Below are positions 62,620-63,080 of a stretch of 64,000 nucleotides of DNA, in pieces. Under the pieces are notes generated by a model. That model worked only from the letters and a program-made list of their open reading frames with translations. It made no database searches and was not told where the DNA came from. Origin of the DNA: Escherichia coli (GTDB lineage: Bacteria > Pseudomonadota > Gammaproteobacteria > Enterobacterales > Enterobacteriaceae); assembly GCF_045037415.1 (NCBI RefSeq), contig NZ_CP173438.1. One strand, written 5' to 3'. A program made the translations under genes and the position numbers. The stretch's first letter is position 1; each line of letters begins with the position of its first letter.

Positions 62620-62706
62620 AAATAAAAAAACCTGCTGGTGAGGCAGGTTCTTTTATTTATTACTTTCAGGCCTAACACCGCAGCCTGTGCAACATCGTGT
62701 TCCAAC
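62620..62706 (-). ncRNA. orzO: Predicted type I antitoxin sRNA (OrzO-like), divergent from toxin gene
   Basis: Minus-strand promoter TTGCAA-N17-TATAAT (-10 at 62713-62718) puts the 5' end near 62706; first ~20 nt (complement of 62687-62706) pair with the toxin 5' UTR at 62852-62871 with one mismatch; ends at the 62629-62649 hairpin plus U-tract. Confidence 0.5.
62629..62660. terminator. Bidirectional intrinsic terminator (proposed 3' end of antitoxin sRNA)
   Basis: aacctgc-tggtgag-gcaggtt hairpin flanked by aaaaaataaaaaaa upstream and cttttatttat downstream. Confidence 0.6.
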
Positions 62707-62712
62707 GAACGA

Positions 62713-62763
62713 ATTATAACCACCGCTGGACCCCGTTGCAATTAAGATAATGAGATTTATAAT
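62713..62763. promoter_or_regulatory. Back-to-back sigma70 promoters sharing a palindromic -35 hexamer
   Basis: TTGCAA (62736-62741) is self-complementary; plus strand TTGCAA-N16-TATAAT (-10 62758-62763) for the toxin mRNA; minus strand TTGCAA-N17-TATAAT (-10 62713-62718) for the sRNA. Confidence 0.5.
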
Positions 62764-62942
62764 CCTGACTGTTGGGAGGTTGCGCCGGATCGAACCAATT
62801 TCAAGTCCTGGCTACCGGACGGGTGGTGCTGCAGGTGGTGCCTGATCCGGAGTGCAACATCGTGGTCCAACATACGTAAACCAGTATCGACAGGCAGTGT
62901 AAGGGTAAGGTGCTGGTGTTGCGCTCCTTAAAAGGAGAGCGG

Positions 62943-63032
62943 ATGGACACGCTGACACAAAAGTTAACCGTGCTCATTGCTGTACTGGAGCTATTAGTGG
63001 CTCTGTTACGGTTGATTGATTTGTTGAAGTAA
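62943..63032 (+). CDS. zorO: Type I toxin, small membrane peptide (ZorO-like, 29 aa)
   Basis: AAGGAG SD 7 nt upstream of ATG; translation MDTLTQKLTVLIAVLELLVALLRLIDLLK with ALLRL motif; ~173-nt 5' UTR from predicted TSS ~62770; below ORF-track cutoff. Name from recollection of the O157:H7 zor-orz system, not from a search. Confidence 0.7.
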   Translation: MDTLTQKLTVLIAVLELLVALLRLIDLLK

Positions 63033-63053
63033 CGGGCAAATTGAAACGCATCT

Positions 63054-63080
63054 AAGGGGGAATACCGTTTCCCCCTTTAA
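63054..63080 (+). terminator. Terminator-like hairpin downstream of toxin ORF
   Basis: aagggggaa-taccgt-ttccccctt hairpin followed by a weak TAATAAA tract. Confidence 0.4.

What the first reader, a model, noticed from the sequence alone, without database searches (positions are those of the whole stretch)
62620..63080. Type I toxin-antitoxin locus (ZorO/OrzO-like) between yehL and the yehI-like gene
A 29-aa hydrophobic peptide gene (MDTLTQKLTVLIAVLELLVALLRLIDLLK) has a strong SD and sits ~173 nt downstream of a near-consensus sigma70 promoter. A divergent ~85-nt minus-strand transcript is predicted whose 5' end is complementary to a 20-nt stretch of that 5' UTR (62687-62706 vs 62852-62871, one mismatch). 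Peptide length, the ALLRL motif, the long UTR and the divergent antisense layout match what I recall of the zorO-orzO system from E. coli O157:H7, reported absent from K-12. Only one copy is present here, not the tandem zorO/zorP pair.
Basis: partly seen in the sequence, partly recalled or inferred. Interest (0 to 1): 0.75.

Follow-up and report, generated by a model that had tools for sequence, protein, structure and literature searches.

The report
Known E. coli zor/orz toxin-antitoxin locus

Summary
The window holds a 29-codon ORF (62943-63032, +) whose product is identical to the published ZorO toxin. It also holds a divergent ~85-nt sRNA gene (62706 to ~62621, -) that matches Rfam RF02083 (OrzO-P) at 98.6 bits against a gathering score of 60. 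Two near-consensus sigma-70 promoters share one palindromic -35 hexamer. The sRNA 5' end pairs 19/20 with the toxin 5' UTR (62852-62871). The locus lies between yehL and yehK/yehI, the published position of zor/orz.

Three refinements apply:
- The RNA specificity determinant V1 (+9 to +11 of the sRNA) is ACG, the OrzP type, not the GAA of OrzO. So this is a zorP/orzP-type pair that encodes the consensus, ZorO-identical peptide.
- K-12 lacks the toxin but keeps orzP.
- A frameshifted yehK lies between zor and yehI.

Single-copy loci were reported in 2010 and quantified in 2024 (25% of E. coli genomes). In a collection of 5,426 complete genomes, 3,392 carry a full locus, 2,863 carry this P-type target site, and 556 records are at least 99% identical to this allele.

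The mechanism is taken from published zorO/orzO experiments and was not tested here. Novelty: already known. Interest: low.

The parts
62621..62706 (-). orz antitoxin sRNA gene, OrzP type, about 85 nt
   Evidence: Rfam RF02083 matches 62624-62699 at 98.6 bits, E 1.8e-16, full model 1-76. The 5' end at 62706 comes from the promoter geometry and homology to the mapped EDL933 start. The fold gives -29.1 kcal/mol, z -3.5, with a free 5' tail in the centroid structure.
62687..62706 (-). Orz 5' seed (GUUGGAACACGAUGUUGCAC), including V1 = ACG at +9 to +11 (62698-62696)
   Evidence: V1 is defined in PMC3919570: OrzO has GAA, OrzP has ACG.
62620..62649 (-). orz intrinsic terminator: stem 62649-62629, U-tract 62628-62620
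   Evidence: The Rfam structure line shows a 12-bp stem followed by a U run. The hairpin was also picked up by the terminator scan.
62713..62718 (-). orz -10 hexamer TATAAT
   Evidence: 17-nt spacer from the shared -35, 10 of 12 consensus positions.
62736..62741 (.). palindromic -35 hexamer TTGCAA used by both divergent promoters
   Evidence: One search reports the same six bases as the first hexamer on both strands.
62758..62763 (+). zor -10 hexamer TATAAT
   Evidence: 16-nt spacer, 10 of 12 consensus positions.
62771..62942 (+). zor 5' UTR, 172 nt (+1 placed by homology to EDL933 zorO)
   Evidence: The alignment to O157 and the UTR lengths give 172 nt here and 174 nt in O157. The difference is two 1-nt deletions. 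The published UTR is 174 nt.
62771..62798 (+). first 28 nt of the mRNA, which sequester the standby region and are removed by processing in zorO (inferred by homology)
   Evidence: In the full-length MFE structure, 62771-62792 pair with 62843-62871. The published delta-28 model is in PMC5397157.
62842..62871 (+). equivalent of the EAP (exposed after processing) putative ribosome standby region, containing the conserved GGAGTG (62849-62854)
   Evidence: It corresponds by position to +73 to +102 of zorO. The GGAGTG/AG motif is reported in PMC11264685.
62852..62871 (+). Orz target site: 19 of 20 pairs, pattern 6(1)13, with an A.G mismatch at sRNA +7
   Evidence: It meets the published requirement of at least 17 nt of discontinuous pairing with one internal mismatch.
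62921..62940 (+). hairpin that sequesters the SD: anti-SD CUCCU at 62924-62928, SD AAGGAG at 62932-62937
   Evidence: Folds give -9.7 kcal/mol for the local hairpin and a mean unpaired probability of 0.20 for the SD. The RBS is reported as occluded in a stem.
62943..63032 (+). zor toxin ORF, 29 aa plus stop, identical to ZorO
   Evidence: for the ORF and for the published peptide sequence. GRAVY is 1.4 and the best 19-aa window has mean hydropathy 2.5.
63054..63078 (+). zor 3' hairpin, a probable terminator with a weak U-tail (9-bp G+C-rich stem, then UAAUAAA)
   Evidence: Folds. It did not meet the T-run criterion of the terminator scan.

Best explanation
This is a single, intact zor/orz type I toxin-antitoxin module on the E. 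coli chromosome, between yehL and yehK. It belongs to the zorP/orzP specificity class and encodes the consensus Zor peptide, which is identical to ZorO.

Shown here by sequence:
- Two back-to-back sigma-70 promoters share one -35 hexamer.
- One promoter drives a toxin mRNA with a 172-nt leader. The other drives an ~85-nt sRNA.
- The first 20 nt of the sRNA pair with +82 to +101 of the leader at 19 of 20 positions.

Inferred from experiments on EDL933 zorO/orzO:
- The full-length mRNA is poorly translated. Its first ~28 nt fold onto the upstream standby (EAP) region, and the SD sits in a small hairpin.
- 5' processing frees the standby region and allows translation of a 29-aa inner-membrane peptide. 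This peptide depolarises the membrane and stops growth.
- Orz binds the 3' part of the standby region, blocks translation there and triggers RNase III-dependent decay of the mRNA.
- Because V1 is ACG, this antitoxin should repress only P-type targets.
For: - Family match: Rfam OrzO-P at 98.6 bits against a gathering score of 60.
- Peptide: identical to published ZorO.
- Alignment to the O157:H7 tandem locus: the window follows the zorP/orzP copy through orz, the promoters and the UTR.
- V1 is ACG.
- Pairing: 19/20, never seen in shuffles. The duplex is -42.4 kcal/mol against -24 +/- 3 for shuffles. The cognate P-type UTR scores -41.8 and the O-type -31.4.
- Promoters: both match 10 of 12 consensus positions.
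- Structure: the full-length fold pairs 62771-92 with 62843-71 and puts the SD in a hairpin, as in the probed zorO structure.
- Covariation: in 8 strains, three seed types (ACG, GAA, GCC) each co-vary with their own target and keep 19/20 pairs.
- Position: same locus, yehL to yehK/yehI, as published.
- Conservation: a full locus is present in 3392 of 5426 complete E. coli genomes, and 556 records are at least 99% identical.
- Experiments in the literature: Z3290 (zorP) and ZorO are toxic when overproduced. OrzO rescues in an RNase III-dependent way and also blocks translation.
Against: - Nothing in the sequence argues against it.
- Expression, toxicity and repression were not measured for this allele or this strain.
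- In the papers I read, repression of zorP by OrzP is inferred from pairing rules and V1 swaps, not shown directly.
- The window's UTR has two 1-nt deletions relative to O157, one of them in the SD-hairpin loop. Their effect is unknown.
- My in-silico accessibility calculation does not reproduce a clear opening of the target after removal of 28 nt (unpaired probability 0.37 to 0.43).
- The physiological role of zor/orz is still unsettled in the literature.
Confidence: 0.93

Rival explanations
1. It is the strict orthologue of EDL933 zorO-orzO, with O-type specificity, left behind after loss of the zorP copy.
For: The peptide is identical to ZorO, with T3 rather than the S3 of EDL933 ZorP. The 3' flank continues into the yehK-side sequence that follows zorO in O157.
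Against: V1 is ACG, not GAA, and the target site is the P-type sequence. Nearly all positions in orz, the promoter and the UTR that distinguish the two O157 copies follow the P copy. P-type loci in CFT073, KTa008 and E371 also encode the T3 peptide, so T3 does not mark the O copy. OrzP does not repress zorO experimentally.
Confidence: 0.03
2. The single copy is a P/O chimera, made when a tandem zorP-zorO pair collapsed by homologous recombination inside the conserved UTR/CDS segment.
For: The 5' part is P-like, and the T3 codon, the terminator loop and the downstream flank are O-like when compared with O157.
Against: The diagnostic sites in the CDS alternate: O-like at 62949, P-like at 62981 and 62991, O-like at 62999. 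That is not a single crossover. The P copy of the two-copy strain E371, and three other single-copy P-type strains, already encode T3. Any single-copy state must have the yehK-side flank after the terminator. An ordinary P-type allele explains the data without recombination.
Confidence: 0.1
3. The toxin half is silent or decaying, and the locus now serves only to make the Orz sRNA, which has targets elsewhere, as proposed for the orphan OrzPmg of K-12.
For: About 30% of E. coli genomes keep orz alone, and it is expressed in MG1655. Here the neighbouring yehK is frameshifted.
Against: Every toxin element is intact: promoter, UTR, target site, SD, 29 codons and 3' hairpin. 556 records are at least 99% identical over the 541 nt, and 549 carry the same 50-nt target region. 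The two roles do not exclude each other.
Confidence: 0.05

Closest known systems
zorP-orzP (z3290 / sRNA-2) of E. coli O157:H7 EDL933
   Same: It occupies the same chromosomal slot next to yehL. The sRNA 5' 20 nt, V1 (ACG), the target site and both promoters are identical, and the 6(1)13 pairing pattern is the same. The sRNA differs at only 3 positions.
   Different: The peptide has T3 where EDL933 ZorP has S3. The UTR is 2 nt shorter. There is no second copy downstream, and an ERIC-type repeat follows the 3' hairpin.
zorO-orzO (z3289 / sRNA-1) of EDL933, the experimentally characterised pair
   Same: The 29-aa peptide is identical, and the architecture, promoter hexamers, SD, SD hairpin and 3' hairpin are the same. 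The sRNA body from the terminator back is the same Rfam family.
   Different: The seed and target differ: V1 is GAA there and ACG here, with several further changes in the 20-nt site. The predicted cross duplex is about 10 kcal/mol weaker. No cross-repression is expected.
OrzPmg, the orphan orz-only locus of E. coli K-12 MG1655
   Same: It has the same sRNA gene (Rfam 99.9 bits), the same shared promoter region and the same position upstream of yehL.
   Different: K-12 lacks everything from about window 62805 to 63196: most of the UTR with the target site, the ORF, the 3' hairpin and the ERIC repeat.
tisB/istR-1, shoB/ohsC and dinQ/agrB of E. coli (divergent type I modules)
   Same: In these modules the sRNA is also encoded divergently, short pairing (about 18-21 nt) falls far upstream of a sequestered RBS, and the long 5' UTR is activated by processing. 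For tisB a standby-site mechanism is established.
   Different: The peptide and RNA sequences are unrelated and the loci differ. tisB is under SOS control, and no such signal is known for zor.

Membership tests
zor/orz type I toxin-antitoxin family (Rfam RF02083 OrzO-P plus Zor peptide) | sRNA matches the OrzO-P covariance model above the gathering score | tested here: met
   98.6 bits against 60, full-length match at 62624-62699 (-).
zor/orz type I toxin-antitoxin family (Rfam RF02083 OrzO-P plus Zor peptide) | 29-aa hydrophobic Zor peptide with ALLRL at residues 20-24 | tested here: met
   Identical over 29 of 29 residues to the ZorO sequence printed in PMC6669753. GRAVY is 1.4.
zor/orz type I toxin-antitoxin family (Rfam RF02083 OrzO-P plus Zor peptide) | sRNA gene divergent from the toxin gene, with TTGCAA / TATAAT promoters | tested here: met
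   Both promoters were found, sharing the -35 hexamer. The hexamers are the same as in Table 3 of PMC11264685.
zor/orz type I toxin-antitoxin family (Rfam RF02083 OrzO-P plus Zor peptide) | [quoted passage not shown] | tested here: met
   19 of 20 pairs in a 6(1)13 pattern; the target lies 72-91 nt upstream of the ATG.
zor/orz type I toxin-antitoxin family (Rfam RF02083 OrzO-P plus Zor peptide) | long (~174 nt) 5' UTR with the SD in a stem and the 5' end folded onto the EAP region | tested here: met
   The UTR is 172 nt by homology. The predicted full-length fold reproduces both features. This is prediction only. The opening after processing was not clearly reproduced in silico.
zor/orz type I toxin-antitoxin family (Rfam RF02083 OrzO-P plus Zor peptide) | chromosomal position between yehL and yehK/yehI | tested here: met
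   Annotation of the identical region in strain 4/1-1 and of the O157 locus; published position.
zor/orz type I toxin-antitoxin family (Rfam RF02083 OrzO-P plus Zor peptide) | toxin overproduction arrests growth; the cognate sRNA rescues in an RNase III-dependent way | not testable with these tools
   Shown for EDL933 zorO/orzO, with toxicity also shown for z3290. Not shown for this allele.
zorO-orzO specificity class | V1 (+9 to +11 of the sRNA) is GAA, with the matching target | tested here: not met
   V1 is ACG and the target is GTGCAACATCGTGGTCCAAC.
zorP-orzP specificity class | V1 is ACG, with the P-type target site | tested here: met
   The seed and target are identical to the EDL933-lineage P copy. 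The P-type target is present in 2863 of 5426 genomes.
zorP-orzP specificity class | ZorP protein variant (T3S) | tested here: not met
   The window has T3. So do the P-type loci of CFT073, KTa008 and E371, so among the strains sampled T3S occurs only in the O157 copy and does not mark the class.

The most novel reading that the evidence does not exclude
The toxin and antitoxin promoters use the same six base pairs (palindromic TTGCAA, 62736-62741) as their -35 element. RNA polymerase could therefore occupy only one of them at a time, which would make zor and orz transcription mutually exclusive at the single-cell level. This would be a transcriptional toggle on top of the RNA-RNA control. A second untested oddity is that the internal mismatch at sRNA +7 is kept in both the ACG and GCC seed types, while the rest of the seed and target co-vary. 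That could mean the imperfection is itself selected, for example to tune RNase III cleavage or the strength of repression.
Probability: 0.2. Interest if true: 0.35.

Novelty: already known. Interest (0 to 1): 0.1.

Why it matters
It matters little beyond correct annotation. RefSeq/PGAP lists no feature under this locus in most genomes, so recognising it fills an annotation gap. Noting the specificity class (P-type RNA with the consensus peptide) helps anyone studying cross-talk between zor/orz copies. The system itself, its single-copy state, its absence from K-12 and its mechanism are all published (PMC2887945, PMC3919570, PMC5397157, PMC11264685).

Tried and rejected
- NCBIfam scan of the 29-aa peptide found no family even at E up to 10, so no curated protein model exists for it. 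Identity to the published sequence was used instead.
- A PMC id recalled from memory for the 2010 paper was wrong. The paper was then found by searching for z3289.
- The supplement of PMC11264685 is held only in truncated form and did not contain the per-strain tables. I ran my own counts instead and an 8-strain survey.
- The idea that the single copy is a P/O recombinant came from the three-way alignment. I largely dropped it after the survey showed ordinary P-type loci with the same peptide.
- Partition-function accessibilities of the full-length and delta-28 mRNA gave no clear opening of the target. I treat this as inconclusive, not as evidence against the published probing data.
- The weak Rfam hits to Thr_leader, Trp_leader and STnc370 on 62619-62729 (-) are all below gathering score and align only through the Orz terminator hairpin. 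I rejected them.
- The first script read the wrong record from a multi-record file. This was corrected.

Full report
**What is in the sequence**

Reading 62000-64000 and listing ORFs shows the 29-codon ORF. Its ATG is at 62943 and the stop ends at 63032. The product is MDTLTQKLTVLIAVLELLVALLRLIDLLK, and AAGGAG lies 5 nt upstream of the ATG.

The consensus scan finds exactly two promoter-like sites in 62500-63300:
- On the plus strand: TTGCAA (62736-41), 16-nt spacer, TATAAT (62758-63).
- On the minus strand: the same palindromic TTGCAA, 17-nt spacer, TATAAT (62718-13).

The 20-mer 62687-62706 recurs at 62852-62871 with one mismatch. Nothing else in the 64-kb window matches at up to 3 mismatches, and none of 100 shuffles gave a match. 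The sRNA is read from the minus strand of the first copy, so its first 20 nt are complementary to the mRNA at the second copy.

**Identity**

- Rfam family RF02083 (OrzO-P RNA antitoxin) matches 62624-62699 (-) over its full length at 98.6 bits. The gathering score is 60 and the E-value 1.8e-16. It is the only such match in the window.
- The peptide is identical to the synthetic full-length ZorO sequence printed in PMC6669753, which also shows that ALLRL (residues 20-24) is required for toxicity.
- The 541 nt around the locus match 5231 of 5426 complete E. coli genomes. 3392 of them match over at least 80% of the query, and 556 records are at least 99% identical.
- In the identical region of strain 4/1-1, the flanking genes are yehM, yehL, a frameshifted yehK, and yehI.
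- This is the position given for z3289/z3290 in the discovery paper. [quoted passage not shown]

**Which member of the family**

An O157:H7 genome carries two units between yehL and yehK.
- The yehL-proximal unit encodes MDSLTQ... and an sRNA beginning GUUGGAACACGAUG.
- The yehK-proximal unit encodes MDTLTQ... and an sRNA beginning GUUGGUACGAAAUG.

PMC3919570 defines the specificity region V1 as +9 to +11 of the sRNA, GAA in OrzO and ACG in OrzP. It shows that OrzP cannot repress zorO unless its V1 is changed. So the yehL-proximal unit is zorP/orzP and the other is zorO/orzO.

A three-way alignment shows that the window follows the P unit at nearly all diagnostic positions through orz, the promoters and the UTR, including the target site. 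The CDS carries T3 as in ZorO, plus a mix of P-like and O-like synonymous sites. The sequence after the 3' hairpin is the yehK-side flank.

A survey of eight strains settles what this means:
- Single-copy loci of CFT073, KTa008 and 4/1-1, and the P copy of the two-copy strain E371, all combine the ACG seed with the T3 peptide.
- The window therefore carries the ordinary P-type allele. Among the strains sampled, S3 occurs only in the O157 ZorP copy.
- A third seed type (GCC) also exists, probably the zorQ/orzQ class of PMC11264685.
- In every unit the seed and its target co-vary and keep 19/20 pairs. This is comparative support for the interaction.

Population counts agree. The P-type 50-nt target region occurs in 2863 genomes and the O-type in 1258.

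**K-12**

MG1655 has an OrzO-P match at 99.9 bits upstream of yehL. The alignment shows it keeps orz, the promoter region and about 35 nt of the zor transcript. It then jumps to the sequence that lies beyond 63196 in the window. So K-12 lacks the toxin but not the antitoxin. This is published as OrzPmg: orz-only genomes make up about 30% of E. coli, single-copy 25% and two-copy 42% (PMC11264685).

**Mechanism**

Shown here:
- The promoters and the pairing (described above).
- The predicted duplex of the sRNA head with the UTR is -42.4 kcal/mol, against -24.0 +/- 3.0 for shuffled heads. It prefers P-type (-41.8) over O-type (-31.4) UTRs.
- The sRNA fold has a free 5' tail in the centroid structure, an internal hairpin and a terminator.
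- In the full-length mRNA fold, 62771-62792 pair with 62843-62871, and the SD sits in the hairpin CUCCU-UAAA-AGGAG.

Taken from experiments on zorO/orzO (PMC3919570 and PMC5397157):
- The 174-nt UTR represses translation.
- Removal of 28 nt exposes +73 to +102 (the EAP region, a putative standby site).
- OrzO binds the 3' end of that region. This blocks translation and triggers RNase III-dependent decay.
- ZorO inserts into the inner membrane and depolarises it.

The natural 6(1)13 pairing here exceeds the published minimum of 17 discontinuous nt. An engineered OrzO 6(1)11 still represses.

Not shown: expression, toxicity or rescue for this allele. My accessibility calculation did not clearly reproduce the opening after processing.

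**Comparison and verdict**

This is a member of the zor/orz family. Every sequence-level defining feature I tested is met. The zorO-orzO specificity feature (V1 = GAA) is not met, and the zorP-orzP RNA features are met. It works like the other divergent type I modules (tisB/istR-1, shoB/ohsC, dinQ/agrB).

Nothing about the copy number, position or sequence is new. The only things I cannot find discussed in the text available to me are the shared palindromic -35 hexamer and the conserved +7 mismatch. Both are minor. Novelty: already known. Interest: 0.1.

Noticed in passing
window 63086-63214: There is an ERIC/IRU-type dispersed repeat immediately 3' of the zor hairpin. A 133-nt query (63084-63216) covering it hits a median of 8 places per genome (range 2-16) in 5425 of 5426 E. 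coli genomes. From memory, it contains near-matches to the classic ERIC1R and ERIC2 primer sequences. O157 has only a short stub at this spot, and K-12 lacks the region.
   Followed up: partly
window 63214-63530 (-): yehK carries a 1-nt deletion relative to K-12 (GACCC to GA-CC). This splits it into 61-aa and 39-aa ORFs. RefSeq marks the same gene as frameshifted in strains 4/1-1, CFT073 and EC13.
   Followed up: yes
window 62736-62741: The zor and orz promoters share one palindromic -35 hexamer, TTGCAA, read in opposite directions. This suggests possible competition for RNA polymerase. I could not check whether this is discussed in the literature, because figures are not held.
   Followed up: partly
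L001, L004-L008 and window 62687-62706 / 62852-62871: There are three seed types across strains: V1 = ACG, GAA and GCC. Seed and target co-vary, with 19/20 pairs kept in each unit. The ACG and GCC types both keep an unpaired position at sRNA +7. Two-copy strains combine the types differently: P+O in O157, O+GCC in GPEC464 and P+GCC in E371.
   Followed up: partly
window 62841 and 62930: The zor UTR has two single-nucleotide deletions relative to both O157 copies. One lies just upstream of the EAP-equivalent region. The other is in the loop of the SD hairpin, which shortens the stem from 6 bp with a 3-nt loop to 5 bp with a 4-nt loop. 549 genomes share the exact 50-nt allele around the first deletion.
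   Followed up: partly
window 30425-30502 (+) and 42169-42249 (+): The whole-window Rfam scan also found naRNA4 (RF02564, 88 bits) and the Peptidase-S11 RNA motif (RF03039, 72.8 bits).
   Followed up: no
window 59134-62578 (-): Upstream lie yehL (a MoxR-type AAA+ ATPase) and yehM (DUF5682), part of the yehLMPQ cluster. Orz is transcribed towards the yehL promoter region and terminates about 110 nt before the annotated yehL start.
   Followed up: no
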